Numbered from the whole stretch's first letter, positions 1,143 through 51,260 are shown. The stretch: 63,518 bases of DNA, filler included, from Bonamia ostreae (GCA_040357525.1; 56 parts of 56 records of this genome joined end to end with filler, not necessarily neighbours in it); one strand, 5' to 3'. Notes: generated from the sequence alone by a model not told the origin. Program-made: numbers and translations.

Positions 1143-2160
1143 AAAATAAATTTCTCGCCGAACAAGTGACAAAAAAATTTTGGTTGGCAATTCGTCAGAA
1201 CCCTCGACGCAGCCGAGAAGAAGGCGATGTTCAGCAACAAGATCGACCCCCAATTCTCTCTAAACATCGGCGCGCTCGATTTGAACCCAAAACATAACGT
1301 CGGCGAAAATAAAAAGTTTATCGCCATTAAAGCTTGTAACAGAATTAATGGATGAAACATCCGATGAGCAGAGAAAAGAGCCTTATTTTTCTCCAAACGA
1401 AAAACAGTTGGGCGAAAGTGACTATTTTTCTTTTCTCGGGCGCGATGAATTTTTTGGTGAAGGCTGCTCTCGTGAGATAAAGGAAAGCTGCGATGCAGAC
1501 GAACATGGAGACGACAACTATCCCATTAAAAGCGAGGAGCAACGAAAGAGGGCTTCTTTTGTATTCGACGGTTGACGACAAAATGAGCCAAGCTAGCATT
1601 GTCAGAAGTCCGGCAATGGACATCCCCGCGGGAACCGCTTTTACGAACTGCTCTGGCAACAAGGAACAAAACCTTTTAATTTTCCGAATTTTCGATTGGC
1701 CAAAATTGCGATTTTAGAATAAAAACGAAAAGAATGAAGACTGCGCCACAGCAAACAGAAATGCGGTGCAGAAAACAGATGCCAAGAAGAAGTAAAAATG
1801 GGTGTTTTTATGGTCAGTGAAATATCTATAAGGGAAAAAGGCCACACCGAAAGAGACGGGAATTTGCAAGGCCCAACTTGCGAAAAGTCTTTTTCTGATG
1901 GAGAACAGGTTCTCTGCTTTCAGCATCAAAAGCGTGACGAACGGCGTCGGCAACGTAAGAATCCAGTTTGAGGCGCCCATTTTTTGCGCCCCGAACAAAT
2001 TCCGCCACAACTGGCTGCTTTGCGCGACAGCGCTGTAAGGACTAAGAATAAGCGCTCCGATCAAAATACAGGCGCAAAAGGTTTTTCTGGAATTTGCGTC
2101 GGCCGACACAGTCGTGATGCATTTTGGGATGTTTAGTTTGTCAGGCTCCATGTCGGACAT
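1143..2160 (-). CDS. Equilibrative nucleoside transporter (ENT/SLC29 family), 3'-partial, protist
   Basis: Three hydrophobic ORFs join via GT-AG introns 1726-1673 (54 nt) and 1358-1333 (26 nt): AVAQSSFFS/FCSLLPEQFVKAVPAGMSIAGLL matches the ENT QGSLFGLAGLLP..YT..IMSGQGLAG region; INFLFSP matches the TM7 ..FP motif. Confidence 0.75.
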
Positions 2161-4055
2161 TGTCGCAATATTATATTTCAGTGNNNNNNNNNNNNNNNNN
2201 NNNNNNNNNNNNNNNNNNNNNNNNNNNTTAATTAATTAANNNNNNNNNNNNNNNNNNNNNNNNNNNNNNNNNNNNNNNNNNNNACCGAATTTGAGGCTAA
2301 ATTTTATAACCGATTTATTGTTTAAATTTTGGCTAAATTTTGCAATTAAACGTTCTATTTTTAGATATATTTTGATGATATTATCGATCTGTTTCTTCGA
2401 ATCTTTTACTAATAGCTCTGTCATCGCTTCAATTATTGCTATTTTCATATAAAAATCGCTTTTATATCTTCAAAAAAATTAAATTTTTGAGAAATAAAAA
2501 ATCTGAAAACAAAATTTAGTCGCCTTAAAAACTTGATGAACAAAGACATAAAATCGATTTGAGTTCTATTCGGAAGTTGCAAATTTTTATCTAAAACGGC
2601 GATCGCTTTGATCGAGCTACAACTGATTTTTTTGTTTTTCGAAGGAAATATTTGGTCTATTTTTATGTATCTCAACAACTGTTTCAATAATCGTTTTTTC
2701 ATATCTTCGTCGAATTGAATTTTCAACAAAGAACAGCATTTAATTAAATGACTTATGTAGTCGTCATCTTTGTACTTTTTGTTGTTCATTGTTGTCAAAA
2801 AATTGTCATTTTCCAAAATGTCAAAAAATATTGTCGCTAAAATCGAAATTTCAAAAAAAAACGAAATTGAAATTAAAAAAATGAAAATTGCAAAAAAAAT
2901 CGAAATTGCAAAAATATCAAATAATTAAAAAAATGAAAATAAAAAAATCGAAATTGCAAAATAATCAAAATTGCAAAAAAAATCGAAATATCAAAAATGT
3001 CAAATAATTTTAAAAAATTTTAAAAAGCACTTTGTTATTGCTATTGTCATTAAACTCCAAAATCTCAATCAACAATTTTACTGCAACAACCGCATTGCAA
3101 TTCATCGAATCTGTACTCTCCGCCAAAACTTTATCGATTTTTTTGCGCACAAAATAAGTTTCAAAATCGCTAAAATCGTTTCTTTTCAGAATTTTCTCTT
3201 TCTCGAAAAATTTTTCTCTGTAAAACGCGACGACGATTTTGACATTTTTGTTGAAAATATCGTCGTCGTTTTTGCCCATCAAAATAATCGTTCTCGCAGC
3301 CAAAACGCGACATTTGTAAAAATANNNNNNNNNNNNNNNNNNNNNNNNNNNNNNNNNNNNNNNNNNNNTTAATTAATTAANNNNNNNNNNNNNNNNNNNN
3401 NNNNNNNNNNNNNNNNNNNNNNNNAGCCATTCGATGATTTGGGGCTAGAGCCAATATGTGGAATAATCGAAAGTCCGGCGCAGTTTAATGTCTTTCTGCG
3501 CTTCGGTCTTTTTTCTAAATTGGTGTCAAAATCTTCTGAGTCTGACGAAATCGCTTCTTCCGTCCTCAAAGAAGCGGTCTTTAAAAATTTAAAGACTAAA
3601 ACTCTTTTTTTAAGCCTCATTTTTGGTGAACTGCAATCTTCGCAGTTACACATTTCTGTGTTCATTATATCCTTGCTAAAATTAAATTTTAAATTAAGTG
3701 GTTGTTTTTTAAATAAGCCTTATTTGTTTGCAATTTTTGTTATTTTACTGTTTTATAGATTATCTTTAACAATTTTTAGTTGTTTTAAAGGGTTCATTGA
3801 AATTTTATATTTTAAATAAAATGGCGTTAAATGGGAGAGAAATTATTTTTAAAATATTAAAATTAAACGAAAAATAAAAATGAAATTAGAGCTTTCAATA
3901 AATTTTATGGAGAAAAAGACCTACCGATGATAAAATGCAAAAACGACATCTCTTCGAAAATTTTATAATTGTCGCAATGCGCACAAAGGATGAAATGGAA
4001 AGTTGAGAGATTGTAATCGTTATTGTCTAAATATAAAAGCGCTCAATATATTTAT

Positions 4056-4310: not shown

Positions 4311-4630
4311 TTTAAGTGCAAATTATATTGAAGTGTCTAAACACATTCGCAATAAAATATTATAAGAAAAACGAAATATCCATATTAAAGCTTTAAACAG
4401 AGATTCAATGCTTATGAATATTGCACATTGTATTGGATAAAAGCATTCACATGTAATCAGATCGCNNNNNNNNNNNNNNNNNNNNNNNNNNNNNNNNNNN
4501 NNNNNNNNNTTAATTAATTAANNNNNNNNNNNNNNNNNNNNNNNNNNNNNNNNNNNNNNNNNNNNGTTTTCCAAAGAACAATTTAAGAAACGATTCTGCA
4601 ATCCTTAAAAATCCAATTTAACGCAAAAAG

Positions 4631-5303
4631 ATGATGAGAGAATACAAATCCTTCCCAAATAAAGACGAAGACGTTTCTAAAGTGCTTGATTTTTACTTCA
4701 GTCTTTGTTCCGTAGAATTAACAGCCCGCGACGCAGCCGTTCTCTCCGCTTCTCTCGCAAACGGTTTGCAAAAAATCATTTCCAAATTTAGGGGGAGTTT
4801 GCCCAATAACAAATGACGCTGTTCTGGAATCCATCAACGTTCGGAATTGCTTATCGCAAATGCTCTCATGTTCGATTTCTGAAAAAAATAAAAAGGCGGA
4901 ATGTACGATTACAGCGGCGAATGGGCTTTCAGCGTCGGCCTCCCCGCAAAATCGGGCGTGAGCGGGTGTGTGCTCATTGTCATCCCCAACAAAATGGGAA
5001 TCGCCGTTTATTCTCCGCCGCTCGACAAAATTGGCAATTCGGTGAAAGGACTCGCCTTCGCCGAACGACTTTCGGAGCAATTTTCCATACACCATTTAGA
5101 CAGTTTCCACGCGAAAGGAGGTCGATTGGAGCGAGCGGTGCGAATGGAAACATCGCGGCGGAGACAGCATCGTCTGAACATCTCGAATTTGCTGGTTTCG
5201 GCTTCGAGCGGCGATTTAGACGAAATAAAAAGATTGGTCTCGATCGGCGTCAATCCGTTCGAGCCCGGGATCGATGGGAGAACTGCTTTGCATTTAGCTG
5301 CTT
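4631..5303 (+). CDS. GLS: Glutaminase with C-terminal ankyrin repeat (kidney-type architecture), partial, protist
   Basis: LDFYFSLCSVE..ASLANG/GVCPIT..VRNCLSQMLS/CGMYDYSGEWAFSVGLPAKSGVSG..SPPLDKIGNSVKG, then ankyrin DGRTALHLAA; introns 4764-4791 (28 nt) and 4870-4895 (26 nt) restore the conserved frame. Confidence 0.93.
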
Positions 5304-5309
5304 GTTTAT

Positions 5310-5605
5310 TGCGAATTTTTATTGATTTTTTTTATTTTCAGAATTTATTGCCAATTTTTTATTGCGATTTTTATTGATTATTTTTTATTTACAATTTTTA
5401 TTGCAACTTTTATTGCAATTTTTATTTATTTTTTTATTGCAATTTTTATTGATTATTTTTATTTGCAATTTTTATTGTTTTTTTTTGCAAATTTTTATTG
5501 ATTATTTTTTATTTGCAATTTTTATTGATTTTTTATTGCGATTTTTTATTTGCAATTTTTTATTGATTTTTTATTGCGATTTTTATTGATTTTTTATTGT
5601 GATTT
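5310..5605. repeat. AT-rich minisatellite inside the glutaminase intron
   Basis: Degenerate TTTTTATTG(CAA/CGA/A)TT units start just after the GT donor at 5304 and run to the contig end. Confidence 0.85.
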
Positions 5606-6670: not shown

Positions 6671-7089
6671 TTTTTCGTATTTGTGGTTATGTTTTTAAAT
6701 TTTTTTGCTTAATATCTTTTTTTTAGTTGAAAATTTTAACAGTAANNNNNNNNNNNNNNNNNNNNNNNNNNNNNNNNNNNNNNNNNNNNTTAATTAATTA
6801 ANNNNNNNNNNNNNNNNNNNNNNNNNNNNNNNNNNNNNNNNNNNNAAATAATTTGGCAATTTTATCAGATTTGTTCATTTTGCCAAAATTTGCGAAAAAT
6901 AAAAATTTTAAGAAAAAACAGCCATTATCAACGAGGTCGAATATAAAATGAGGTTGAAACGGCTTTTTAAAACTAGAAATAACGCAAAATTATTTCACGA
7001 CATTAGATTATAATTATTACATTAATTTTCGATTGCAAAAATAATTTTTGGCTTAGTTGACTTGCACTCTGAAATAAACTATTTGAATT

Positions 7090-7788
7090 TCATAAACCAA
7101 GCAATAAAGATGGACGAAAACAAAAACGGCTTTGAGCAATCCTCCATTTCCGATTCGAAAGATTTGCCAGAACGACTCAAAATTCTCGTAAAACAGATTT
7201 TTATTTTTTTGTTGCTTCAAAATCGAATTAAAATTACGACTCCATTAAACCTTAAAAGAGGCATTCACAATGCGGAAATTTTGGATGAAACATTGAAAAA
7301 AATGTCGGAACAGTTCCACAATTCTGGTTCGGTTTTAAAAAAGATTTCCGAAAAATCAACTGCGAAAACTTCTCGCAAAAATCTACACGACTATGTTGAT
7401 AAAGACTGCATGAACACTTATTCGGCGATTAACATTTTGGGTGACAATCATTTGAGAATAAGTGATGAAATTAATGAGCTTATAGAGTCAAAATATCACA
7501 CGGTAAATAAATTTTTGAGTGGAAATATTTTAAGTCGAGTGACGATTTGGTCGAAAATAAATCGACTTTTTCCGTAACAATAAAAATTGAAGGGATTGGA
7601 AAATTTGAGATTGCGTTGCAAAACTTTGGATAAGCAAAACGGGGAATGTGTTGCTTCGTTGCGAAAGCAAAGGGTCAACATTGAATTGCTAAAGCAACGA
7701 GCAATTAAAAAAATTACAAATGAGTTCGAGAAAGATTACAACATACGAACTAATGGTACGCCGTCAAAACAAAGATTGTCTGTTATGG
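7090..7788 (+). CDS. Intron-containing alpha-helical/coiled-coil protein, possibly BAR-like, partial
   Basis: ORFs 7062-7577 and 7587-7805 carry helical charged sequence interrupted by AT-rich intron-like stretches; exon limits approximate. Confidence 0.35.
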
Positions 7789-8153
7789 TTCGATTTGGTT
7801 TTTAAATTAAAATTGTTTTTCTGAATTGCTAAAAATCGATTTTTGTAAAATTAAAATTGTTTTTCCGAATTGCCAAAAATCGATTNNNNNNNNNNNNNNN
7901 NNNNNNNNNNNNNNNNNNNNNNNNNNNNNTTAATTAATTAANNNNNNNNNNNNNNNNNNNNNNNNNNNNNNNNNNNNNNNNNNNNTTTATTTTTTAAGAC
8001 GAATTTTTATTTTTTAAGACGAATTTATATTTTTTAAGACTAACTTTAATTTTTATAACGAAATTTAATTTTTAAGACAAATTTTTATTTTTTGACGAAA
8101 TTTAATAATTCTGAAACACAAACATAATTTTTATCGAAAAAATTTCCAAAACC

Positions 8154-10948: not shown

Positions 10949-11442
10949 CTAAAATGAATAGTTCATGTATGTATTTACGAAATGTGTTCAACATTTAACT
11001 TAATACGTCATGATTATAGTAAAAACTGTCCTAATGGGACTTCTACTCCTAATGGATGTTATTATTTGAAAGTGATTTGAAATAATGTAAATCAATAAAT
11101 ATTCGCAAGATATTTATTTTCCTATAATATTGTGTAACAATGTCTGTCTGTGAATTAAAGTAGTTGCAAATAAATACATCAAAGTTTACTCACGAAATAG
11201 AGTACATTGCACTCTTGAATAGTAAGTTATCTACATGCAGTATTGAACCCTTAACCCATTTTTTAAAAATACATGGAAAATAAATTTACAATTCATATTC
11301 CACTCNNNNNNNNNNNNNNNNNNNNNNNNNNNNNNNNNNNNNNNNNNNNTTAATTAATTAANNNNNNNNNNNNNNNNNNNNNNNNNNNNNNNNNNNNNNN
11401 NNNNNTCGACGAAAAGTCAATTGCTGAAAAGAAAAAAAAAAC

Positions 11443-12445
11443 CGATTAAGAAATGAAAAAGGCAATCCTTTTCTTCCTCCGCCCTCAGAAAGCGGATTCT
11501 GTGTCGCGAAAACGCGGAAACCGTCCGCACAGCTCACGTTTTCGCCGATTTCTGGTACAAAAACGCATTTCCGATGGTCCAAAACGGAATTGAGTCCCTC
11601 CAAAACTTGTTGCGGCGCCAAATTCAATTCGTCCAGCATAACCCAATCGCCGTTCCGCATCGCTTTTAAGAAGACGCCATCTTCCCAACAGAACTTGTCG
11701 CCGCGAGGGAGGTCGCATCCGATCAAGTCCATGATATCGGTGTGTTCGGACAAATTTATTCGAACCAATTTGTTTTTCGTTAATTTTGCGAGCGCTGAGA
11801 TCGTCGCCGTTTTGCCGACGCCGGGACTGCCTTCGATCAAAATGGCCTTGTCTAGTTGCATTGCTCGTAATATGTTGAACATGTTTTCTTTTACTGTTTG
11901 GCTTTCTGTGTAGAAATTTTGCTCTTTTGTTATAAATTTTCGATTTTTAGATTTTTTTGTTTTTGATTTTATCTTTTTTGTAAATTTGTTATTTTTTGTT
12001 TAAATTTTATGGAATTTTTCAATTTTTGTCTTTTTATTTTTTCTAAATTTTTCAATTTTATAAAAATTCGATTTTATTATTTTGACGAAATTGAAATTTA
12101 TGTTTTTGTTTTTTTTTTGAAATATTTGTTATTTTTCGAGTAAATTTGATAAAATTTGTAAATTTTAATATTCGAAACGTTTTTTATTATTGTCGGGATT
12201 TTGACTGTCGCCGACAAATTTTTGCGATAAGTTGACTAAACTGAGAGAACATTTAGCTTTTTTGATATAAAAAGGATCAATTCCAATTAAATCGCGATTT
12301 TCAAAGATTTCCTTTTTGTCAAAACTTTGAATTTTAATATCAGATTTTAGCAAATTTGAGAATCCAAAATCTTTGAAAAAAATTTGGCATTCTTCAAAAT
12401 TCAAATTTGTTCCGTTTAAAAGCAATTTTAGGCCTTCAACAAAAA
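11443..12445 (-). CDS. MDN1: Midasin/Rea1 AAA+ ATPase, internal exons
   Basis: ILRAMQLDKAILIEGSPGVGKT, RINLSEHTDIMDLIG, WVMLDELNLAPQQVLEGLN, FATQNPLSEGGGRKGLP.SFLNR; upstream exon with GIDPFYIKK separated by a ~300-nt intron. Confidence 0.93.
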
Positions 12446-13552: not shown

Positions 13553-16159
13553 TTCTTTTATTTAAAAGGCGAAATTTAAAATTTGNNNNNNNNNNNNNNN
13601 NNNNNNNNNNNNNNNNNNNNNNNNNNNNNTTAATTAATTAANNNNNNNNNNNNNNNNNNNNNNNNNNNNNNNNNNNNNNNNNNNNTTCCATATCCACTGC
13701 AACTGACCTTAGAAATATAGTTTTGAATATAATTGTAATGTTGACCAACCTGAACTTAAAACTTTATTCTTCATTAACAATTCTAATTGATTAGCCTATT
13801 AGTCAAAGTCAGTGTTACACCATAACATCAATGCACTCATATATGCACCTATTTAACTTTTACAAAGAATTGCAATTTAAACTGTATTTCAGAAATGAAA
13901 TAGACAATAGTTTTCTTTAAAATCCCATCTCATTTCGTCAATGTTTTTCACTTTGCATATTCTTTATGTATTCTGATTTACTTAATAACAAAAAAACAAA
14001 CATTTTATATCATAACAGATTACTTTGTGTTTGTAAAAATGATATTTCATGTATAATGCTATGGGTTGAAAAGTTGAATCTAGCAGATTTGTGACTGTTA
14101 ATACATGTATCAAAATGTATGTTTTGAAACACTGATGCCCCTTTAACCCTAAAGGTCAAGGTAAAAAAAGTTAGGTACCAAAAGAAAGGTCTTGTTATAA
14201 ATAATACATGTGAAATATAGAGCCTAAGTAAATTAACTACCAAAAAGTTATGCTGAAGGTTAAAGTTTCAAAAGTAGGTTAAACCCTAAGGTTAATAGGT
14301 CATAGATTTTAAGAAAGGACTTATTAAGAGGAATACACATGTGATTTATGGAAGCCCTATCACGAACCATTCTACAGTTAGAGCGTTTGCTTACAGACAG
14401 ATGGACCAGAAACTATATGCCCCAAAGTCTGGCATAAAAAGGAGGGAAGCTTCTCCTTCCTAATTATTCTAGACTCCTAAAAAGAATGTATTGCATTGCA
14501 ATGTATCAATTCTTATGGCCATTCATGCCTATATGTATTTTATGACAATTTCATCAATAAAATTACTCTTAATTTTATGATTTTGAACACAATGATGTTA
14601 ACAAAATATATATTAAAAGGTTATGTCAAAACAGATCAATGTTTTATAATCTAAAATTATATGGTGGTGGTGGTGAGGTGGGGGTGTGGAAGAGAGTATT
14701 TTCCCTAGGTACATACATCTGCACTNNNNNNNNNNNNNNNNNNNNNNNNNNNNNNNNNNNNNNNNNNNNTTAATTAATTAANNNNNNNNNNNNNNNNNNN
14801 NNNNNNNNNNNNNNNNNNNNNNNNNTTCGTTACTGGAAGAAGGAAGTCACAAATCCTACAGTTCCTATTACCCTCAGCCCAATACATGCAAAATTGTGGT
14901 ACACATTGGTCGTTTAATATTTGAGAATAAGTTCTAAATGTTAAAGCAAGGCCGACGATAGACAAATCACAGTAAAGAAACAGCAAACAAAGGGGGGACG
15001 ATAATGATAATGGTTGAACGATAACACATTGCGAGTGAAACTCAGTTTTCGACCGCTAATGAATGATGGATATAATATTCCCTCTTTGAATACAAAAATT
15101 AAATGTTCCATAATTTTAAATACTTTATGTTCACCTTCAGTAGAAGTGCAGCTATTCACTACGATACATCNNNNNNNNNNTTAATTTTCGATTCTCCACT
15201 GAGCAGTTCGATTCAATATGAAAAAAAAATAAAGTATGTTTACAATATCTATTTATTTCCTTTAACTTTTAAACAACGTCTCTGATTGGCTACAAAATAT
15301 ACAATCAACACTTAGATCACTGATGCAAACAAGAATGAGTAGTAATTAGATAAACCAGGGCTAAACTATCCTTAACAGTCGCTTTGGAATATTTGGTTTT
15401 AGATAGGTTGTAAAAGATAAAAAAAAAAAAACCCATTCCCAATGATTTCTGTAATATTTGAATAAGTGATTAAACAGGTTTTTAGTCAAATTGCTTTTAA
15501 AGATTTGTATGAAATGTATTGATTCTATGATATCATGTATATGATTTCTAAAAGCTATTCTAAATCTAAGGTAACTAAAATATCAATAAAATGTGACCTT
15601 CAAATATTATCTAAAGTGTTTGATGTTGACTGTGTTTGAAAACAAATGCGTGTTGAATAACAAAGTTAATATTAAAGAACATTGAGCTTGTTGATCGAAT
15701 TGAAACAACCTAATCGAAAGGCTTCAAGTGAAATCGATTCAAATTGAAAAGTTTGTGTAATGTTAACACTCTAACCTTCAAGTCTTTTAATTTCTCTTTC
15801 TTGATCTCTTTCCAGTTTTTGTATTATATCTGTATAAAATATGTAAAAAAAAACAAAAAAAAACANNNNNNNNNNNNNNNNNNNNNNNNNNNNNNNNNNN
15901 NNNNNNNNNTTAATTAATTAANNNNNNNNNNNNNNNNNNNNNNNNNNNNNNNNNNNNNNNNNNNNTGATGTTTCAGATATACTAGGACACGGTTTAATAG
16001 CTCGTCTTTTTATGGTATTATCTTTACTTTTTATTTTTATTTTTGTCTTTGGCATTTTTTCTATAACAAAAATTTAGATTTTGAGATTTTCTTTAAATTG
16101 AGTTTAAACGTTTTTGATATTTCTCTTTGTTATTTTTCCAAAGTTTTCGAGAATGTCAA

Positions 16160-19382: not shown

Positions 19383-20421
19383 CTTGGCTTCCTAGATCAG
19401 GAACTATAGCCTCATTAGCAATATCGAAGGCACCTGCGAAATCTTCACATTTCATTTCAACAGTATTTAATAGGTCAGATGTTTTTCCTTTAAAGTCTAT
19501 TTGGATTGTACCAGAGAATCTTTTCCCTGTAAAATCAAAATCAATACCAACATATTCTCCCTTTGAGGAATCACCTATTAGATAGGTTTCTCCAGCTCCA
19601 AATTCATATGATGATGTATCTCTAGCCTTAACAGTATTATACACCTGAGAGGCCTTTGTATGGCTCATAGCTGTTTCTATAGCTGTAGCAAGCAATGTGT
19701 AAGGTTTTGTGAATGTACCATCGCTATTTCCACCTGTATAAGTATCATCGAAATAAACAGTATCTGCTTCACTGTGTGTGTGAGAATCTTTAACATAAAG
19801 ACCATCAGCCTCTGATGTTAGGATGTTATCTCCAGCAGGATGTAATTTAACGTCTACTTTAATATCTCCAGGAGTCACTGAATCAGCAACAATATCCATG
19901 GATCCATTAGTTGATTTTAGGTTAATATTTCCAGAAACTGGGTCAACATTATTAATCTTTGTAGAGGCTCCACCAGATCCACCTATTGCCTTCAAACCAG
20001 AGGCAGAAACAGTTAATGTGTTATCTGAAGCAGGGTCTATTACTGGAGAAATATTTAGTTGTCGATTAGCTGGGCTTTAGAATGCCAAACCACCAGATCC
20101 ATCTGATAGAGTAATATTCTTAGAAACAGGAGTAATAATATTTATTTTATCCAATAAAGAGGTGATTCCACCTGCTCCAACAGCAAATAGACCATCAGAG
20201 TTTATTTGAATAATATTATTAGCTGATTTGGAAATATTAACTTGGGCTAATAGTTCATTTGCGGTTGAGGATGCTTCTACCTTTATGGAAGGATCAGCAG
20301 TAAATCCAATATCACCAGTAGAATCCGGATCAACTCCTCCAACGGATGAAACTGTTCCAGCACCACCACCAGCAGTCTTAAGATCGATGTTTCCACCAGC
20401 AGTCCTAGTTACAGTAACTGA
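19383..20421 (-). pseudogene. Virus/phage tail-fibre- or adhesin-like frame, intronless, one in-frame TAA at 20079-20077
   Basis: One frame spans the whole contig (~346 codons); three ~64-aa imperfect repeats (VSSVGGVDPDSTGDI..NNIIQINSDGL; PVSKNI..DNTLTVSASGL; INNVDPVSGNI..DNILTSEADGL), then VYFD..GNSDGTFTKPYTLLATAI. Confidence 0.6.
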
Positions 20422-35994: not shown

Positions 35995-38712
35995 GTACTG
36001 TTGTTTCATGAGTATAACACCATTAGAATTTTTATAATTTCTCTCAGTTACAAAATTAATATATTCTTTTTGAAAAGCAAATGACATGGGACAGGAGGAG
36101 GGGGTCAGTACATGTACGACGAGTTCATTACTTGCAATTCTATTACCTTTCGTCGCCATTATAACCTTTTTTTTTCTATCCTACCCAACATCAGAAACTC
36201 ACTTCAATCACGCATGTTGGTGGTACTAGTGCCTTCACTGACACCATTGGGCACATTCAATGTGATTTCTTTCGTTTGTGTAACGAATTAATCCTATCTC
36301 ACAGTCTCCTGGGTACTCATCATGAATGGCTTACTCCGGATNNNNNNNNNNNNNNNNNNNNNNNNNNNNNNNNNNNNNNNNNNNNTTAATTAATTAANNN
36401 NNNNNNNNNNNNNNNNNNNNNNNNNNNNNNNNNNNNNNNNNTTTTGATGTAATTATCTGTTCAACATTTTCAATAAATTATAAAGTTTCTTTCGTTTCGG
36501 AAAGCAAGAGTTGTGTGCTGAAATACGGCAACTGTTTGATTTGGTAGTTATTCTCAAACGAATTCAATATTATATTGATCATTAATGAAAGACTGAAAAT
36601 AACACAGAGTGATGAATATCATAACCTATAGAAGAAATATAAAATCGAAATTTGGGCAAACACGGATTCATGGGTTTCCAGAGGTGGGGTCAGGTGTCAA
36701 GGAGGAGTTCGCATTGTCTCTCGACCGATCACACTAAGTGAACCCTATACATTGATCTTAACATGAACATATATTTGAGAGGAGTTTAAAACATCTTGAA
36801 AATGTGTACAATTTAATTTAAATGTTGACTTTTAACATTGACTGATGGTTAACGTCCAGTCATTGCTACTTACGTGTAAATGCAAGTTAATGGAAAAAGT
36901 CAGTGTCATTTTGATTTAACTGGCATTTGTATAGCTAGAATCGGGGCTACAATATTGATGCTTCATATTTAGAGAAATCCATGCAAGGGGACAAAGATTC
37001 ATAACAAATAAACATGGCGTATTAACTCTATTAACTATATACCAACCCTTGCTATCATTTCGATCTATAGTATAGAAATATATGGGACTAAAGTGAAAGC
37101 TCAAAGTAAAATATTCAATGTTGTATATCACGATAACCATGGTGACGACTTAGCCAATTCTATGGGCATCCATTTATATAAGTTCCTGTGTCTGTCTTCT
37201 TTGAGAAAAATATTAATGTGATATATTTTATTTGAAATTAGAGCTAATGTGCAAGTGGTCCCATGTCTCTAAACATATTTGTGAAAACGATATGGGCTCA
37301 AACAAAGAACTACAAACATGTAAGGACAATTACCAGATTTAAAGGCCTTCAGTTCACTGATTTTGTTTCTCCATGTGAATTCATGATTAATGGTTGTGTG
37401 TCTCTGTTTCTTTAGTAACTACGAATAACACTGCACCTGTAACACGTTTTTAAATCAGGTCAAGTCAGTGTTTAGCNNNNNNNNNNNNNNNNNNNNNNNN
37501 NNNNNNNNNNNNNNNNNNNNTTAATTAATTAANNNNNNNNNNNNNNNNNNNNNNNNNNNNNNNNNNNNNNNNNNNNGATATGTCCGCAACATGTTTGTTT
37601 TTCTTTTTTCATTCCTTTTTCGTCAAAAAGGCTTTCAAATGTTCAGGAATTCTTGTCAGTGAGAATTCGCTGCGAATTGGAGGGTAAACACATTTTAACC
37701 GGAAGTGTAGGGATTTTAGTAAAATGTTGTAATTTTTCATTTTCTCGTTTGATGTTGACGGTGTTGGAATATACCAAATAATGTCAAGTATGATTTTGCA
37801 CATATTTGTACGCGGATACATATGTAGGAGGTGACGACTTTAACTTTTGCGATTTTTTCTCCAGGTTAATTCTCAGACACTGCTTGATATCGAATTATAA
37901 AACTCTTTAGGATGATATAGCACTATTTATAGAGCTCTGATATTCATCTGACATTTTTGTTCGTCAATTCCGGTCATCACAGGAAGTGATGAAAAATACT
38001 TCCTGTTCAGACAATCTCTCCGTTATCTACATTCACGTCCTGTCGAACTGGTCATCACCATCCCCTACTTTTCTTTTTCCAATCTTTCTTATCTAGAACT
38101 CTTTCGATAGAGAAATTAAATTTTAATCAAGAGGTGCTGTGATTTAGAAAGTAAACACATCTTCGAATTACTTTTATCGTCATAAGAAATGACGTAAAAT
38201 TGGTAAAATAAATTCACTTTAATTCTTGATATATCATGATTGTTTTGTGATAAGTTGGTAGACTATACATAATGAAGTTTAAAATTGTGTTTTACGATTG
38301 TACTCGCGCGAATGCAATATCTCCTTGATATTTCACAGAAGGGATTTGAATTTGGATTTCGAAATTCTATGGGTGGTAAACTATTTTAACACGAATACAG
38401 AGGATCAAATGTTTATTTCAGAGACTTTTTACACAAAGAAAAGTGCATGCTTTAAGAAAGTAATTTGTCATGCCATGCTACTAGTATTTGTACTTCGTTG
38501 CTTTTTCCTACCCATGTGACGTGTATCAAATCCCACTTCATGAAACAACCAAATGCAGTTAAATTGTACGTTCTGAAATCTACAAAATATGTCAAAATTC
38601 GGTGATACCCCNNNNNNNNNNNNNNNNNNNNNNNNNNNNNNNNNNNNNNNNNNNNTTAATTAATTAANNNNNNNNNNNNNNNNNNNNNNNNNNNNNNNNN
38701 NNNNNNNNNNNA

Positions 38713-38937
38713 CAAAAATATTTTTAACGGAAATGTAAATTTGCAATTTTTGTAACTTGAAAGCAATTACAAAAATATTTTTAACGGAAATGTAAATTTG
38801 CAATTTTTGTAACTTGAAAGCAATTACAAAAATATTTTTAACGGAAATGTAAATTTGCAATTTTTGTAACTTGAAAGCAATTACAAAAATATTTTTAACG
38901 GAAATGTAAATTTGCAATTTTTGTAACTTGAAAGCAA
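38713..38937. repeat. Perfect 57-nt tandem repeat, ~4 copies, in the PP1 intron
   Basis: ACAAAAATATTTTTAACGGAAATGTAAATTTGCAATTTTTGTAACTTGAAAGCAATT repeated to the contig end. Confidence 0.95.
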
Positions 38938-38948
38938 AAAATATAAAC

Positions 38949-39481
38949 GTGCAAAAAATTTTCCTTTCGATCAAAGCGCAAATCGGCAAACAATTGAAAC
39001 ACTCCACAAAAGTTCTCCAAACGCGAACGTCAAAGCGTTCACAACACTCTTTTTTGAAGCCATAATATCTGCTAATCGAACTGCTCTCATGATTGCCCCT
39101 TATCAGAAAAAAGTTGTTCGGATACCTTATCTTCAAAGCCAGAAGAATCGAAATGGTTTCGATGCTCTGAACTCCTCTGTCGACGTAGTCTCCCAGAAAA
39201 AGATAATTGTGTTCCGGCGGGAATCCTTGACTTTTGAACATTCGGAGCACGTCTTCGAACTGTCCATGGACATCTCCGACGATTTTGAGGGGAGAGGCAA
39301 GTTCTAGTAACGTCGGTTCAGCCATAAAAAGTTTTTCAGATTTTTCCGTCAGAAAGAAAAGGTCGTCTTCAGTCAAATTTTCTCGGAGGATGACGCGGCG
39401 GTTGTCTAAATCTAAATCTTTTGCGGATAAAAGTTTTTGAAGAATGGCCGAAGCGCGTTTTTCGTTGGGGTTGAGAGGCAT
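38949..39481 (-). CDS. Ser/Thr phosphatase, PP1-like catalytic subunit, first exon
   Basis: [44 protein letters not shown] donor at 38948 just before the expected HGG. Confidence 0.93.
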
Positions 39482-41562
39482 TTCGGTTTGTTATTATTAA
39501 AATTTTGATAAGTTTTTCCGGATTTCTGTTATATGTTATTTGCTAATTTTTTTACAATTAAAAGTGTTTTCGAAAAACAAATGGAATAACAATTAAATGG
39601 AAGATAATAATTAAATCTTTCTAAATTTTTTAAAATTAAATTTATAAAATTCTCCGTCTTGTCTACGATGATTCGAGAAGGCTTATTTATTAAATTTTTA
39701 TGTTTAATATTTCTTTTTGGTTAATTCAAACAAATCGGTTATTTTNNNNNNNNNNNNNNNNNNNNNNNNNNNNNNNNNNNNNNNNNNNNTTAATTAATTA
39801 ANNNNNNNNNNNNNNNNNNNNNNNNNNNNNNNNNNNNNNNNNNNNATTCGCCATCTGAAAGTATGTTAAAATGAACTTTGCTCTAATTGAAAAACCATTG
39901 GTAATCCTACCAAATTGATAACTCATAGTTCTTCTAAAGAATATACAATTAATAGAAGGGCAAACATGAACCCCTTAACACACCAAAGATGGGTCAAGGG
40001 CCTGGGAGGAGTACACATCTCCTATTAACTAATCATATCCTTTGCAAATCGTCCATCTTCATCAGGTCAACGAAGAAATTCATAGTCAAAATCAGTATGT
40101 AAAGAATGGTATAAAACACGTCAGACAGCCTTCGACCTTACGACAAATTTGCAAATAATATCACATCGTAATTTTAAAATTTACTGTATGGGTATAAATA
40201 CAAGAACTACAAGTTGTAATGTTGTAATTTTTAAATATTACAGTATGACAATAATCCCATTATAACAACTGCGGAATTTCCGAAATACTGACTTCATATA
40301 TAGTGCAATATTTAAACTATATCCTTCAACACCCCTCCATAAAAAACCCAACAACGAAGTTTGGGGTTATATTGTTTTCACTTCGTCCGTCTGCCTATAG
40401 AGATATTTTATCGAGATATTTTCTTGGAAGCTGTTGATTTACATTTCACCAAATCTTATGGAAATGTATACTACGTAAACCTGTGCATTTGTTATTTTAG
40501 ACTAATGTGTTCAATTTTAAGAAAGTTATGACCATTTGTTGTTATTTTCCATATTTCTGTGTATTCTGTCAGTACCCCCCCCCCTCCAACAACTTTTTGG
40601 GGTGTAATGATTTCATGAAGTCTCTTTATCTGTCTTATAGTTTTCATCCACCCATCTATTATTGGGGCAATTGATAGATTTCTGCTAGCCGTCCTTGTGT
40701 TTGTCTGTTTTTCGTTCATCCATACAATTTCTCGTTTCTCACAAATTCCTATATGAATAAACCACGCGGAGGTATTTGTCCCATTAAGCCATGCCTAATT
40801 TGTTTTATAAAGAAATGGGGAAATTATCACAGTTTTGTGAGGACTTTTTAGCAGAATAAGCTTTCTTTATGCCTACAGGNNNNNNNNNNNNNNNNNNNNN
40901 NNNNNNNNNNNNNNNNNNNNNNNTTAATTAATTAANNNNNNNNNNNNNNNNNNNNNNNNNNNNNNNNNNNNNNNNNNNNAAATAACTCAAAATTTTCTGT
41001 TTTTCCGGCCATTTTTTCTTTCTGGCGGAACCGATGTGTTTGCATTTTCAGACTGTTGATGCCTTGTGTGTCGATTTCCATTTGTTCTAATCGGATTTTC
41101 TGTTTGCAATATATTGGATTGTGATAAAGGTGAGCTTAAAGAATGATTTGATGTTTATTCATATTAATAATTTTTAATGATTTTGTTTATAATGGATATT
41201 TGATGTGCTTTTATTAAACAAAATTTGTAAAAATGGGCACTTTCAATTTTGATTTTTATTATATTTTTCATTTAGTTTTCCCAATTAACAATTTTTTTAA
41301 TTTCCGAGGAATTAAAATGTCGGAATATTTGAAAGTTTTAAATTCTGAAGATTTAAAAATAATATTTTTACTATCTCGAGCAACTTACTCATATCAAAAT
41401 CATCAATGACGCCAAGTCAATTGATAAAAATGTTTTTGGTTTCTGTTGGCGCCATTAGTAAAAATTTTTGATCGCTTTTAATTTTTTTGAAACTATTTTT
41501 TATTGTGCTTAATTTTAACGTGAATTTTATTGTTATAAATATAGACAACAGATGTCATTTAC

Positions 41563-42013: not shown

Positions 42014-44379
42014 NNNNNNNNNNNNNNNNNNNNNNNNNNNNNNNNNNNNNNNNNNNNTTAATTAATTAANNNNNNNNNNNNNNNNNNNNNNNNNNNNNNN
42101 NNNNNNNNNNNNNTTTTGTGTTATGCACTCACTTTACATATTTTATCATTGTAGTCGAGGCTCGCGGTTTGTTATTGATGTATGTTAAAATTATATTGAC
42201 AGGGATTCGTCAAGATTGCATTTTGTCACCATTCCCTGTGTATGACTTGCCTACAGAAATGTAAATCTTTGTCATCATGCGTTGGGGATAACTGTTCAAA
42301 CACTGGAATGCCTCCAACACGATATCTTGACCATTTGATGTCATCGTTAAAAGAAAAGGGGGTTTGTAGTACGAAATATCGGAACTTTGAATTTTTCTTA
42401 TCTCTTCTTGAAAGGAAGTTACGAAANNNNNNNNNNCTCCACATGAGTGAAAGATTCTGAAAAAGGACGTTAAACAATATACACTACCAATCACGAGGGT
42501 TAATATTTTAGATCAATGTTGGTACATTAGTGTTGATATTAGATAATACTAATTTGCATCATCAGAATTTTCACATATGCATAATAAAGCTGATAAAGAC
42601 AACAAAAATTCTAAACGAGTTTTACCAGTTTTAACAGTTTGTGATTTAATCCTTGCTTTATTTTGGGAAAATCTCCAGTTGGAGTAAACCCTGTAAGATT
42701 AATGGATTAATGTTTCTACATCTCCCATGCTTTCTCAAACGTTTAATGCCATTGTCTACGACCACGATACCACTCAAAAAATATCTGTGATAATTTTTCC
42801 TTTGAGGAAACTGTTTAGGGGATTTATCAAACACTTCATACCGTACATAAACTTAAAACATACTTTGCATTGACATGTATGTGAATCAATGCACACTTAT
42901 ATTGAAATCAATATTCAATATATGATCTAGTAATCATTTTTTTCAGGAGACTCCATTTCTCTTGAGGACAACTGACTCTCCAGTGGAGCCTTGGACGTGC
43001 AGTGCATGCAGAAAATCAGTATGTAAAATCTATGCGACAAGATTTAGATTCAAACAAACGAAAGGCATATTACATCTTATTTTCAACAAATATTAGTATG
43101 GTTCAGGTATTATTGCGTTATTGCTCTTTTTTACGATGAAGACATANNNNNNNNNNNNNNNNNNNNNNNNNNNNNNNNNNNNNNNNNNNNTTAATTAATT
43201 AANNNNNNNNNNNNNNNNNNNNNNNNNNNNNNNNNNNNNNNNNNNNCCATTCTAACCCGGATCCTCTCGGGATTAAATTGGAAGAAGAGCCAGCATACAT
43301 GTACTATCATGTGCGGGAATGGATGATCTTTTTGTTGTGGCCTTCGGTTCTACATATCTGCGAAATTTTCTGAGTGTTAAACAGTTTATCAACAAAAATT
43401 TCCCAAGGATTAACGACTGATTTGGGAAAGTGGAATTTCGCATCTGCATTGTGACAACGGAATATTCTCGTGCGTGACACACACGTTTAACGCTCTCTTT
43501 ATGAGTCATACTGCATCTTAGTAATGTTTTCTATGATCTATTTTTCTGTAAACAAGTAAAAGTGAAATAAATTGTGAAATGTGTGATTTTTTGTGATTGA
43601 TTTCTGCTGATCACGACAAGAGTTAATTCTAACCAATAAGAAAATAGGGAGGTCATTTGGAATGCGGAAATAATCCAGATTTATATTTTAACTGAGTTTA
43701 ATTTTTTTCTGATTTGTTGATTTGAATAGCAAAAAGAAAGAAAGAAAGAAGTATACTCTTACTCTTAGTTACAGATTGCCCTGAATATATTGCTGCTTTG
43801 AAACAAGATGAGTTAATTGCATTAGGTTTACTTTTCTGGATTATATAAGAAATTTTCAAACCCCAGTATTTCGAAATGATAGGAAAACCTTCGTTTACTT
43901 TTGTTCTGACTCTCCTCATGCTCAGGCCCAGTTATGTTAATTCTATGACGAATTGTAAGCCATTTTTTGTTTCAGGGATTTGTTTTACTCAATAATTCTA
44001 GTAAAGTTAAACCGGAGAGATAATAGTAATATCTAGACTTCGTAGTTAGAGAAAGTTTTGCCTTTGTCTGACCAGACATCTGTTGGTGGGTCAGTTTCAC
44101 AACATGGTGTGGAGCTAAGCGTCATTTATGGTTCCTTATAGAACTTATTTGAAATCAGATTTGAGTACTGGGGCACTTTTCGTAACCTACTTCTCCTATG
44201 AAAAACGTTTCCTTCTTACAAGGTATCGAATTAGCTGGTGGTGAAGTTGTATCAAATTTCGTATTTTCTGGGGAAACACNNNNNNNNNNNNNNNNNNNNN
44301 NNNNNNNNNNNNNNNNNNNNNNNTTAATTAATTAANNNNNNNNNNNNNNNNNNNNNNNNNNNNNNNNNNNNNNNNNNNN

Positions 44380-45228
44380 CAGCTCCAGCAACAATTCGAC
44401 CATGAATCTAGTAATATGAATTTTTTCAATGCGCCATCTCCCCCAGACCTCAATTCCCGCCCTCTTTCAAATCCTCAACCAATTTCTTCGCAAAACTCGC
44501 CATTCCCAAATTCAATGATATTCCAATTCTCTTCGACACGAAATCAAAACAATCCGACGCCATCAAACGCTCAATTTCAAAACAATCCGACGTCATCAAA
44601 CGCTCAATTTCAAAACAATCCGACGTCATCAAACGCTCAATATCAAAGCCATCCGTCTGGCCAAAGTTTCTTCCGTCAAACGACCTTTTCGTCTCCGTCC
44701 GGGGCGCCCATTTCATACTCGATCTCGACACGCAATTTTGGGGGCCCTATCCAAACGACGAACTCGACAACGTCGACGGGGGTACACCCCGATTTCTACG
44801 AACTCTTCAACACAGTGTTCAATCAAAGGACCGACGGAAATAACAGAAACAATGAATTTTCGTTTCCAAACTTGTTCGAAGGCAATTTTGAGCGTATTTT
44901 CGAGTACTTTCGGTCGGTTGGCGCTCGCGACGGAAATCAAATGCAGCCGGCGACAGAACACGACATCGAAAATTTGCCTTCGTTCGTTGTAGACAAAAAG
45001 ATGGCTGAGAGTTTGACTTCGCAAAAATGTGTTTTTTGCATGGAGCAAATGGTAGAAAAGGAGGAAGTGAGGCGATTGCCGTGTTTGCATGTTTTCCACA
45101 AGAAAGAAATCGATCAATGGCTAAAGATCAACAAAGTGTGCCCAGTTTGTAAAGCGGCGATCGATTCTTCCGACCGAAGTCAAGAGCAGCAGCGAGGACA
45201 AGGACAGACCGGACAAAGGCAAAACTGA
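44380..45228 (+). CDS. RING-H2-type E3 ligase (RNF115/126-like layout) with variant Zn ligand; frame open to contig start
   Basis: PATEHDIENLP..CVFCMEQM..VRRLPCLHVFHKKEIDQWL..CPVC; low-complexity N-terminus with 3x 33-nt repeat (NNPTSSNAQFQ). Confidence 0.9.
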   Translation, partial: QLQQQFDHESSNMNFFNAPSPPDLNSRPLSNPQPISSQNSPFPNSMIFQFSSTRNQNNPTPSNAQFQNNPTSSNAQFQNNPTSSNAQYQSHPSGQSFFRQTTFSSPSGAPISYSISTRNFGGPIQTTNSTTSTGVHPDFYELFNTVFNQRTDGNNRNNEFSFPNLFEGNFERIFEYFRSVGARDGNQMQPATEHDIENLPSFVVDKKMAESLTSQKCVFCMEQMVEKEEVRRLPCLHVFHKKEIDQWLKINKVCPVCKAAIDSSDRSQEQQRGQGQTGQRQN

Positions 45229-45257
45229 CAAAAAATTTTGTGTTTCAAACTTTTTTG

Positions 45258-45412
45258 TTTATTTGCAAAAATTGAACAAAATCAATAGATTGCAAAAATA
45301 TCTTCGCTTTATTTGCAAAAATTGATTAAAATCGATCAATTGCAAAAATATCTTCGCTTTATTTGCAAAAATTGAACAAAATCAATAGATTGCAAAAATA
45401 TCTTCGCTTTAT
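45258..45412. repeat. 50-nt tandem repeat x3 downstream of the RING gene
   Basis: ATTTGCAAAAATTGA..AAAATC.AT..ATTGCAAAAATATCTTCGCTTT at 45261, 45311, 45361. Confidence 0.9.
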
Positions 45413-46689: not shown

Positions 46690-46910
46690 TTTAAAATCGC
46701 AATTTTTGCAATTTTCAGCAAAATCATTAATCGTTAATTTTTTCAATCGCTAATTTTTGCAATTTTCAGCAAAATCATTAATCGTTAATTTTTGAAATCA
46801 CTAATTTTTGCAATTTTCAGCAAAAATCATTAATCACTAATTTTTGAAATCGCTAATTTTTGCAATTTTCAGCAAAACCATTAATCACTAATTTTTGAAA
46901 TCGCTAAAAA
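46690..46910. repeat. Tandem repeat (~54 nt, ~4 copies), probably intronic
   Basis: AATCGCTAATTTTTGCAATTTTCAGCAAAATCATTAATC.. repeated between a GT and an AG. Confidence 0.85.
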
Positions 46911-51075: not shown

Positions 51076-51260
51076 NNNNNNNNNNNNNNNNNNNNNNNNN
51101 NNNNNNNNNNNNNNNNNNNTTAATTAATTAANNNNNNNNNNNNNNNNNNNNNNNNNNNNNNNNNNNNNNNNNNNNTTTTCAAAATTAAAAGAACAAGTGA
51201 ACAGCTTTTTCAAAATTTATTAAATTGAACAGCTTTTTCAAAAAAGATAACAATAAAAGG

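What the first reader, a model, noticed from the sequence alone, without database searches (positions are those of the whole stretch)
19383..20421. Virus/phage fibre-like contig with a single nonsense codon: possible endogenous viral element or third organism
Unlike both eukaryotes here: no introns and a Gly/Ser/Thr/Asp-rich frame spanning the whole contig. It has three ~64-aa repeats containing V(S/N)xVxPxxGxI and (D/N)N.L....DGL motifs reminiscent of phage tail-fibre repeats, followed by DGTFTKPYTLLATAI, which resembles the cap preceding beta-helix spike domains. One TAA (20079-20077) interrupts repeat 2 and the frame continues on both sides. Inference: a decaying integrated virus (Polinton-like, large DNA virus or prophage) of the parasite, host or an associated bacterium.
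Basis: partly seen in the sequence, partly recalled or inferred. Interest (0 to 1): 0.7.

Follow-up and report, generated by a model that had tools for sequence, protein, structure and literature searches.

The report
Stray virus-type fibre gene fragment
A 1-kb stray contig in a eukaryotic assembly holds the middle part of a rare, large, three-stranded fibre/spike protein gene of the kind phages use to grip their hosts; nothing shows it is integrated or decaying, and its single stop codon could not be checked.

Summary
Contig 19383-20421 is one minus-strand frame with a single TAA (20077-20079), three 61-65-aa repeats and a helix-capped domain.

It is not a eukaryotic gene. Third-position GC is 0.18, against 0.35-0.52 in six eukaryotic ORFs of the window.

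The fragment matches residues 294-622 of a 1356-aa protein (E 1e-75). That family has only three clear and one distant full-length member among 1.84 billion representatives. It has no Pfam, PHROG or NCBIfam match. No hit came from 50,697 phage genomes, IMG/VR, GTDB genomes, plasmids or JGI metagenomes.

Fold evidence:
- The domain after the repeats is a right-handed beta-helix (best match a phage tailspike, Z 10.2, in the relative).
- The repeats model as an intertwined homotrimer (score 0.80, best control 0.01).
- More distant repeat relatives match a phage family and jumbo-phage tail-fibre genes.

Best reading (0.6): a piece of a virion fibre/tailspike gene from an undescribed phage of an AT-rich associated bacterium.

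"Integrated" and "decaying" are unsupported. There is no host junction. Similarity continues on both sides of the stop. The source runs hold the contig at depth 2.4-3.4, and no piece covers the TAA.

The parts
19383..20421 (-). Whole contig: an internal fragment (346 codons, open at both ends) of a gene for a roughly 1350-aa fibre/tailspike-type protein. It corresponds to residues 294-622 of relative P0002.
   Evidence: Translation. phmmer E 1.2e-75 to P0002, 2.8e-51 to P0003, 2.8e-38 to P0004. Colinear alignment.
20356..20421 (-). Residues 1-22 (SVTVTRTAGGNIDLKTAGGGAG): the segment that follows the coiled-coil stalk in the full-length relatives.
   Evidence: Aligned to P0002 residues 294-315, after its coiled-coil region.
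20167..20355 (-). Fibre repeat 1 (residues 23-85).
   Evidence: Self-alignment and shuffles; motif NNIIQINSDGL.
19972..20166 (-). Fibre repeat 2 (residues 86-150), interrupted by the TAA.
   Evidence: motif DNTLTVSASGL. Trimer interface residues from 124 onward.
20077..20079 (-). In-frame TAA (codon 115). It falls at an alignment column that varies among relatives (D / N / G).
   Evidence: Not covered by any laid contig piece.
19789..19971 (-). Fibre repeat 3 (residues 151-211). It forms the core of the modelled three-chain interface.
   Evidence: motif DNILTSEADGL. Lowest-error contacts at residues 155-207.
19384..19776 (-). Residues 216-346: a conserved YFDDTY..DGTF.KPY segment, a capping helix (244-258) and the first rungs of a right-handed parallel beta-helix. 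The contig end cuts it off.
   Evidence: AF2 block pLDDT 54-89 for this region. VIA best Z 6.4, with beta-helix proteins filling the top of the list. The same domain in P0002 gives Z 10.2 to the CBA120 TSP1 tailspike, and 32 chains reach Z>=8.

Best explanation
The contig is an internal piece of a gene for a large homotrimeric virion fibre/tailspike-type protein. The full-length family is about 1350 aa and is laid out as follows:
- an N-terminal domain of about 140 aa;
- a coiled-coil stalk;
- a variable number of roughly 63-aa shaft repeats;
- a helix-capped right-handed beta-helix;
- about 570 aa of unknown fold.

Inferred mechanism:
- The N-terminal domain anchors the trimer to a virus particle.
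- The coiled coil and intertwined repeats form the shaft.
- The beta-helix binds, and possibly cleaves, a surface polysaccharide of the host cell.

The gene most likely belongs to an undescribed phage or prophage of an AT-rich bacterium present in the sample, not to the eukaryote(s) of the assembly.

The single TAA is either a low-coverage base error or a recent nonsense change. The data cannot say which.

Shown here: the frame, the repeats, the family relationship, the deviant codon usage, the beta-helix likeness and the trimer model. Inferred: virion attachment, glycan binding, a phage rather than other origin, and a bacterial host.
For: Frame and family
- One frame is open across the contig; the other five hold 9-42 stops.
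- Full HMMER search of 1,835,955,588 representatives: 7 proteins at E<=0.001. Three are strong and colinear, at 1347-1356 aa. P0007 (1202 aa) is a fourth, distant full-length member.

Not eukaryotic
- GC3 is 0.18, against 0.35-0.52 in six ORFs of other contigs. Five of those six reach the gathering cut-off of a typically eukaryotic Pfam family; the sixth (ARM_Cnot1) falls below it.

Fold
- Residues 216-346 are modelled at block pLDDT 54-89. Their best structural matches are beta-helix proteins, including phage tail proteins (best Z 6.4).
- The longer domain in P0002 gives 32 chains at Z>=8. The top match is the CBA120 tailspike TSP1 (Z 10.2, rmsd 3.5, 173 aligned), followed by PL6 lyases, pectin methylesterases and the Pam1 tailspike.

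Trimer
- Three copies of residues 116-346 score 0.80, best control 0.01.
- Partner pLDDT is at least 72, and the runs share at least 69 % of contacts.
- The mark was reached by 21 of 30 solved homo-pairs and 0 of 23 single chains.
- The calibration used two copies, not three.
- The interface lies in repeats 2-3.

Links to phages
- Weak repeat relatives P0005 and P0008 match phrog_31688 (E 4.5e-34 and 3.2e-26).
- P0006 carries an N-terminal Amidase_2 domain. Its repeats hit genes annotated tail fiber, tail needle knob or structural protein in jumbo and other phages (7 records, E 3e-10 to 3e-4).
- The coiled coil of the family profile resembles trimeric stalk coiled coils (2wpr_A, E 0.0047).
- The relatives' N-termini show no hydrophobic leader. 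This was read by eye; no predictor was run.
- The ESM Atlas neighbours of P0002 are phage tail-protein clusters, but only at 0.75-0.87. These are leads, not tests.
Against: - No curated family matches the fragment or its three close relatives: Pfam 0 families; PHROGs only E 0.0055-0.29; NCBIfam nothing meaningful.
- tblastn of P0002 and P0003 found nothing in 50,697 phage records. P0001 there reached only E>=3.
- None of the pattern matches was confirmed in IMG/VR, GTDB genomes, JGI metagenomes or plasmids. The genomic context of every relative is therefore unknown.
- Foldseek against the PDB gave 0 matches at E<=0.001. The BFVD matches have TM<=0.15. Both AF2 models are poor overall (mean pLDDT 49.5 and 41.1).
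- The beta-helix fold and this type of coiled coil also occur in bacterial adhesins and enzymes: PfbA, SRRP, pectin methylesterases and trimeric autotransporters.
- The trimer pass may reflect the model's memory of solved fibres.
Confidence: 0.6

Rival explanations
1. One reading: a decaying viral element (Polinton-like, large DNA virus or prophage remnant) integrated in the genome of the host or parasite eukaryote, with the TAA as a true inactivating mutation.
For: An in-frame TAA is in the assembled sequence. The contig was assembled together with eukaryotic contigs.
Against: - There is no junction: the frame runs off both ends.
- There is only one stop and no frameshift in 346 codons of AT-rich sequence, and similarity to relatives is kept on both sides. 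Any inactivation would be very recent.
- GC3 of 0.18 is far from the eukaryotic ORFs, so the sequence has not drifted towards the eukaryote's composition.
- The stretch was found in 2 runs of one study only. The other listed runs that were indexed and carry the same species label hold next to none of its words. Two of three raw-read runs of that label were laid, and 0 reads were laid from about 1.3-1.4 billion letters of each. The tool calls that no test without proof that the organism is in those runs.
- No other contig of the window encodes a relative. 0 of 9 unexplained ORFs matched a phage family.
Confidence: 0.07
2. A structural fibre gene of a free virus of a eukaryote (the parasite, the host animal or another protist), such as a giant virus or a Polinton-like virus, rather than of a phage.
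For: - The family is absent from all phage and prokaryote collections searched.
- Very AT-rich codon usage also fits many giant viruses (recalled, not tested).
- The BFVD list contains giant-virus proteins, though at TM<=0.15.
Against: - The only tested links of the repeat are to phage families and phage tail genes. One repeat relative carries a peptidoglycan amidase domain, which implies a bacterial target.
- The BFVD matches are not meaningful for so poor a model.
- No capsid, polymerase or ATPase gene is available to test.
Confidence: 0.12
3. A cellular, non-viral surface protein of an associated bacterium: a fibrous adhesin or a cell-surface polysaccharide-degrading enzyme with a beta-helix.
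For: - The beta-helix matches include the adhesins PfbA and SRRP and many glycan-active enzymes, at Z values within 1-2 of the tailspikes.
- The family's coiled coil resembles trimeric autotransporter stalks (E 0.0047).
- There are no hits in phage collections.
Against: - The relatives have no YadA-type anchor, LPXTG motif, secretion domain or any other Pfam family.
- Their N-termini show no leader-like hydrophobic stretch (read by eye).
- tblastn confirmed none of the pattern matches in one genome for each of 185,579 prokaryote species and found nothing in 72,556 plasmids. That is unexpected for a chromosomal adhesin family.
- The layout (N-domain, coiled coil, repeats, beta-helix) is that of tail fibres and tailspikes.
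Confidence: 0.15
4. The TAA is read as an amino acid (an alternative genetic code or programmed readthrough) in the source organism, so the gene is intact.
For: The frame and the similarity continue across the TAA. Several contigs of the window are open when only TGA is taken as a stop.
Against: - In those other contigs the TAAs lie in A-rich low-complexity flanks, not in the conserved domains. The AAA_5 and phosphatase ORFs have none.
- The fibre frame has 1 TAA against 6 CAA/CAG.
- The relatives are called as uninterrupted proteins of 1347-1356 aa.
- The phage recodings described in the passages read of PMC11210395 are TAG to Gln and TGA to Trp. 'TAA' does not occur in its main text.
Confidence: 0.03

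Closest known systems
Unnamed family of about 1350-aa proteins: P0002 (1356 aa), P0003 (1347 aa), P0004 (1356 aa) and the distant P0007 (1202 aa), from unnamed public assemblies
   Same: The match is colinear over the whole fragment: 52, 39 and 35 % identity by phmmer, E 1e-75 to 3e-38. The fragment shares the same repeats, the YFDDTY..DG..KP motif and the same domain start.
   Different: The window holds only about a quarter of the gene, it carries an in-frame TAA, and its repeat number differs. P0003 and P0004 have an extra repeat of about 65 aa. P0002 and P0004 lack part of the third.
Phage tailspikes and tail fibres with a right-handed parallel beta-helix, for example CBA120 TSP1 (4oj5) and cyanophage Pam1 tailspike (7eea)
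   Same: Both have a helix-capped beta-helix after an N-terminal shaft (Z 10.2 and 9.1 in the relative; Z 4.1 for 4oj5 in the fragment). A homotrimer is modelled.
   Different: Identity is only 10-15 % over the aligned residues. There is no shared Pfam or PHROG family. About 570 aa of unknown fold follow the helix. No catalytic residues were identified.
phrog_31688 repeat proteins (P0005, P0008) and the jumbo-phage tail-fibre and 'tail needle knob' genes hit by P0006
   Same: They share the repeat ending [DG]N.[LI]....DGL. The fragment has 3 copies; these proteins have 13-16. phmmer E values to the fragment are 2.5e-07 to 1.4e-04.
   Different: Their period is about 50 aa, not 63. The fragment itself does not reach phrog_31688 at E<=1. 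The likeness is limited to the repeats.
Trimeric autotransporter adhesin stalks (SadA fragments 2wpr and 2wpq)
   Same: The family's coiled coil, which lies outside the window's fragment, aligns to their Asn-rich stalk repeats (E 0.0047).
   Different: No signal peptide is seen by eye and there is no YadA anchor. The match is weak and compositionally biased.

Membership tests
Unnamed ~1350-aa fibre family (P0002/P0003/P0004/P0007) | Significant colinear sequence similarity across repeats and domain start | tested here: met
   E 1.2e-75, 2.8e-51 and 2.8e-38 in a library of 1.84 billion proteins. Alignment.
Unnamed ~1350-aa fibre family (P0002/P0003/P0004/P0007) | Full architecture (N-terminal domain, coiled coil, C-terminal ~730 aa) | not testable with these tools
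   The contig ends cut the gene on both sides. No whole genome is held. No other contig of the window encodes a part.
Phage tail fibre / tailspike (functional class) | Right-handed parallel beta-helix receptor-binding domain | tested here: met
   VIA-align: 32 chains at Z>=8, nearly all beta-helix proteins, top Z 10.2, for the relative's domain. Z 6.4 for the truncated domain of the fragment. Foldseek against the PDB gave nothing at E<=0.001, so the support rests on one aligner and models of middling confidence.
Phage tail fibre / tailspike (functional class) | Homotrimer | tested here: met
   Three copies of residues 116-346: score 0.80, best control 0.01, partner pLDDT at least 72, at least 69 % of contacts shared. 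The mark was reached by 21 of 30 solved homo-pairs and 0 of 23 single chains. The calibration was for two copies. This is a model, not a measurement.
Phage tail fibre / tailspike (functional class) | Encoded in a virus genome next to tail or baseplate genes, and present in virions | not testable with these tools
   No DNA of any relative could be fetched. The look-up of encoding contigs is closed.
Phage tail fibre / tailspike (functional class) | Match to a curated phage fibre family (Pfam or PHROGs) | tested here: not met
   Pfam: 0 families at E<=10. PHROGs: best E 0.038, to a family of unknown function. For P0002 the best PHROG E values are 0.11-0.29.
Trimeric autotransporter adhesin | C-terminal YadA-type membrane anchor and N-terminal signal peptide | tested here: not met
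   No Pfam family in P0002 (E<=1) or in P0003, P0004 and P0007 (E<=0.01). The N-termini are polar when read by eye. No signal-peptide predictor was run.
Endogenous viral element / Polinton-like or giant-virus insertion in a eukaryote | Junction with host DNA, or linked capsid, pPolB or packaging ATPase genes | not testable with these tools
   The frame runs off both contig ends. No whole genome is held. Within the window no relative and no phage-family ORF (0 of 9) was found.
Stop-codon-recoded gene (TAA as sense) | Recurrent in-frame TAA at conserved positions in genes of the same organism | tested here: inconclusive
   There is one TAA in 346 codons, at a variable column. No second contig of the organism is available. 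The eukaryotic domains in the window have no in-frame TAA.

The most novel reading that the evidence does not exclude
The fragment and its four relatives mark an undescribed virus lineage. The relatives' contigs reach 38-39 kb, and the lineage was not found in any of INPHARED, IMG/VR, the GTDB species genomes and JGI metagenomes. It might infect not a free-living bacterium but the eukaryotic parasite itself or an obligate AT-rich symbiont of it. The phage-style trimeric fibre with a beta-helix and a 570-aa unknown C-terminal module would then be its host-recognition device.
Probability: 0.1. Interest if true: 0.6.

Novelty: new member of a known kind. Interest (0 to 1): 0.3.

Why it matters
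- For the assembly: this contig should be flagged as foreign (virus or bacterium associated) and not annotated as a eukaryotic gene, pseudogene or endogenous virus.
- For virus discovery: it points to a rare fibre family with five members in all, no curated annotation and a large C-terminal part of unknown fold. It seems to belong to AT-rich genomes that current phage and prokaryote collections do not hold.
- Fetching the two 38-39-kb contigs of the relatives would probably reveal what kind of virus it is.

Tried and rejected
- Word-index search at similar length: none of 8000 candidates scored E<=0.01. In 'longer' mode, 1 of 7998. The C-terminal 757 aa of P0002 found only itself and P0004 among 7998.
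- Attempts to fetch relatives' DNA all failed. IMG/VR: 2 and 168 pattern stretches, none confirmed; also P0007 and P0005, 1 stretch each, none confirmed. GTDB genomes: 147 stretches, none confirmed. JGI metagenomes: 382 and 598 stretches, none confirmed. No whole genome is held for the window.
- tblastn against phages with P0002, P0003 and P0001 found nothing beyond chance. Plasmids gave nothing.
- NCBIfam gave nothing except a spurious E 0.03. The single-sequence PDB search gave one chance hit at E 1.5.
- BFVD Foldseek gave 9 rows at E<=0.001, all with TM<=0.15 on a model of mean pLDDT 41. These were judged meaningless. PDB Foldseek gave 0 rows at E<=0.001.
- The ciliate-type code idea arose because 5 contigs are fully open, and a sixth nearly so, with TGA as the only stop. 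It was rejected because the in-frame TAAs lie in A-rich flanks outside the conserved domains.
- Read test of the stop: the Logan pieces cover 19383-19915 and 20171-20421 only, at depth 2.4-3.4, so the TAA was not tested.
- No RNA holder was listed.
- 0 reads were laid in raw runs X4 and X5. The tool states that this is no test.
- Earlier findings of this scan: nothing by place, by sequence (two look-ups) or by words.
- Rfam: 0 matches in the window.
- Trinucleotide-level tandem repeats in the contig: one weak 18-base array, which is the Gly/Ser-rich coding stretch.
- Supplementary files of papers were not consulted.

Full report
WHAT THE WINDOW IS. The window is not one locus. It is about 57 contigs of 1030-1042 bases joined by N...TTAATTAATTAA...N spacers, in order of falling length. 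The finding is exactly one of these contigs, 19383-20421. No whole genome is held for it.

THE OBSERVATION.
- Frame 1 of the minus strand is open for all 346 codons except one TAA at 20077-20079, which is codon 115. The other five frames hold 9-42 stops.
- The product is 47.4 % G+S+T+D+N.
- Three repeats of 61-65 aa (residues 23-85, 86-150, 151-211) are real. Their pairwise local scores of 46, 54 and 79 were reached by 1, 0 and 0 of 500 shuffles. Each ends in (D/N)N.[LI]....(D/S)GL.
- The TAA lies in repeat 2.
- DGTFTKPYTLLATAI is at residues 234-248.

IT IS FOREIGN TO THE EUKARYOTIC CONTIGS.
- Other contigs encode typical eukaryotic domains. These are Rhomboid, dynein-type AAA_5, FAT, a PP1-type phosphatase with STPPase_N, RING and ACBP, plus a weak CNOT1 repeat.
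- Six such ORFs have third-position GC of 0.35-0.52. The fibre frame has 0.18, with 82 % A or T at third positions.
- tblastn of all seven relatives against the window hit only this contig.
- 0 of 9 unexplained ORFs of at least 149 aa matched a phage family.

RELATIVES.
- Pfam, PHROGs, NCBIfam and a PDB sequence search gave nothing usable for the fragment.
- A full HMMER scan of 1,835,955,588 representatives found 7 proteins at E<=0.001.
- Three are strong and colinear: P0002 (1356 aa, E 1.2e-75, 52 % identity; the fragment matches its residues 294-622), P0003 (1347 aa, E 2.8e-51) and P0004 (1356 aa, E 2.8e-38).
- P0007 (1202 aa) proved to be a distant full-length member.
- Each is a single-member cluster without a name. 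Their contigs are 6.2, 39.5, 38.1 and 25.8 kb.
- The family has no Pfam family and only chance-level PHROG hits, which lie on the coiled coil.
- tblastn found nothing in 50,697 phage records or 72,556 plasmids.
- Pattern scans of IMG/VR, the GTDB species genomes and JGI metagenomes confirmed no relative.
- The genomic context of every relative therefore stays unknown. This is the main gap in the report.

ARCHITECTURE OF THE FAMILY. In order along the protein:
- a conserved N-terminal domain of about 140 aa;
- an Asn/Thr/Ala-rich coiled coil, whose profile weakly matches trimeric autotransporter stalk fragments (2wpr_A, E 0.0047);
- a variable number of the roughly 63-aa repeats, where whole-repeat insertions and deletions distinguish the members;
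- the conserved YFDDTY..DG..KP segment and the domain that follows it;
- about 570 further residues that no tool explained.
The window's fragment covers the repeats and the first 130 residues of the following domain.

FOLD.
- AF2 on the fragment with its 4-row alignment gives mean pLDDT 49.5. The repeats are unmodelled as a monomer. Residues 216-340 have block means of 54-89, with a helix at 244-258 followed by strands.
- An all-against-representatives structural search gave 5 chains at Z>=5 of 48,161. The best was pectin methylesterase (Z 6.4, rmsd 3.9, 99 aligned). SRRP adhesin, a phage Andhra tail protein and several tailspikes followed. On its own this is middling.
- The C-terminal 894 residues of P0002 fold poorly overall (mean pLDDT 41.1), but block means for residues 31-240 run from 41 to 88, mostly above 60.
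- That domain gave 32 chains at Z>=8, nearly all right-handed beta-helix proteins. The top match was the tailspike TSP1 of phage CBA120 (Z 10.2, rmsd 3.5, 173 aligned). PL6 alginate lyases, YbhC, pectin methylesterases, the PfbA adhesin and the Pam1 tailspike followed.
- Foldseek did not confirm this. The PDB search gave 0 rows at E<=0.001, although beta-helix proteins head the weak list. The BFVD rows have TM<=0.15.
- I take the beta-helix as likely, not proven.

TRIMER.
- Three copies of residues 116-346 scored 0.80 (runs 0.80, 0.81, 0.80) against a best control of 0.01.
- Partner pLDDT was at least 72, and at least 69 % of contacts were shared between runs.
- The mark was reached by 21 of 30 solved homo-pairs and 0 of 23 single chains. 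The calibration was for two copies.
- The confident interface is residues 124-212, that is repeats 2 and 3 wound around each other.
- This supports an intertwined trimeric shaft. It may partly reflect the model's memory of solved fibres.

LINK TO PHAGES.
- The weak hits P0005, P0006 and P0008 share only the repeat. They carry 13-16 copies of the [DG]N.[LI]....DGL ending.
- P0005 and P0008 match phrog_31688 (E 4.5e-34 and 3.2e-26).
- P0006 begins with a peptidoglycan amidase domain (Amidase_2, 29.8 bits against a cut-off of 26). Its repeats hit 7 phage records in genes annotated tail needle knob, tail fiber protein or structural protein (E 3e-10 to 3e-4).
- This link is transitive, and it is the only sequence-level tie to phages.
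- ESM Atlas neighbours are phage tail clusters at 0.75-0.87, which are leads only.

THE STOP CODON.
- Identity to the three relatives is 42-46 % upstream and 31-54 % downstream of the TAA. The stop falls on a variable column.
- One stop and no frameshift in an AT-rich frame means any inactivation is recent, or it is not real.
- Only 2 runs, both of one study, hold the stretch. Their Logan pieces cover 19383-19915 and 20171-20421 at depth 2.4-3.4, and none covers the TAA. A base error at such depth is plausible. I could not test it.
- A sense reading of TAA is unlikely. The relatives are uninterrupted. The eukaryotic domains in the window contain no in-frame TAA. The phage recodings described in the passages I read of PMC11210395 are TAG and TGA only, and 'TAA' occurs 0 times in its main text.

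VERDICT.
- The contig is a fragment of a trimeric fibre/tailspike-type gene of a rare, unannotated family. It most likely comes from a phage or prophage of an AT-rich bacterium in the sample (0.6).
- A recoded TAA (0.03) concerns only the stop codon and is not exclusive of the others.
- By kind it is ordinary: a foreign virus-like contig in a fragmented eukaryotic assembly. By sequence it belongs to a family that curated resources do not yet know.
- Background on depolymerases in tail fibres and tailspikes rests on the abstract of PMC13687390, seen in a search listing, and on general knowledge.

Noticed in passing
window 5305-5605, 38712-38937, 50432-50675, 3728-3738 (also 2839-3018 and 46687-46907 with variants): AT-rich minisatellites on different contigs share the core TTGCAATTTTT. 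There are 15 exact copies on 4 contigs, against 0.82 expected; no shuffle of 100 had more than 3. At 38712-38937 a 57-base unit is repeated 4.0 times at 100 % identity, right after a PP1-type phosphatase ORF. This may be a dispersed intergenic repeat family of the AT-rich eukaryote.
   Followed up: partly
window 1143-2183, 4566-5605, 6846-7885, 11406-12445, 38712-39745: Whole contigs are open, or nearly so, in one frame when only TGA counts as a stop. This looked like a ciliate-type code. However, the in-frame TAAs sit in A/K/N-rich flanks and not in the conserved domains, so it is a composition effect.
   Followed up: yes
window 15171-15180, 42427-42436, 57153-57162: Three of the pieces are scaffolds with an internal gap of 10 N, unlike the 44-N spacers between contigs.
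   Followed up: no
window 1143-2183 (GC 0.444), 44380-45412 (0.415), 51176-52207 (0.414) versus 45513-46545 (0.222): GC content of the 1-kb contigs ranges from 0.22 to 0.44. Only coding potential was looked at, not origin.
   Followed up: no
relatives P0002, P0003 and P0004, residues about 790-1356: The roughly 570 C-terminal residues of the family are well conserved. Examples are IGIRRK, MFPQYYPL and QDCAYINEL, and several Cys are invariant. They have no Pfam or PHROG match and were modelled at pLDDT mostly below 50, so the fold and role are unknown.
   Followed up: partly
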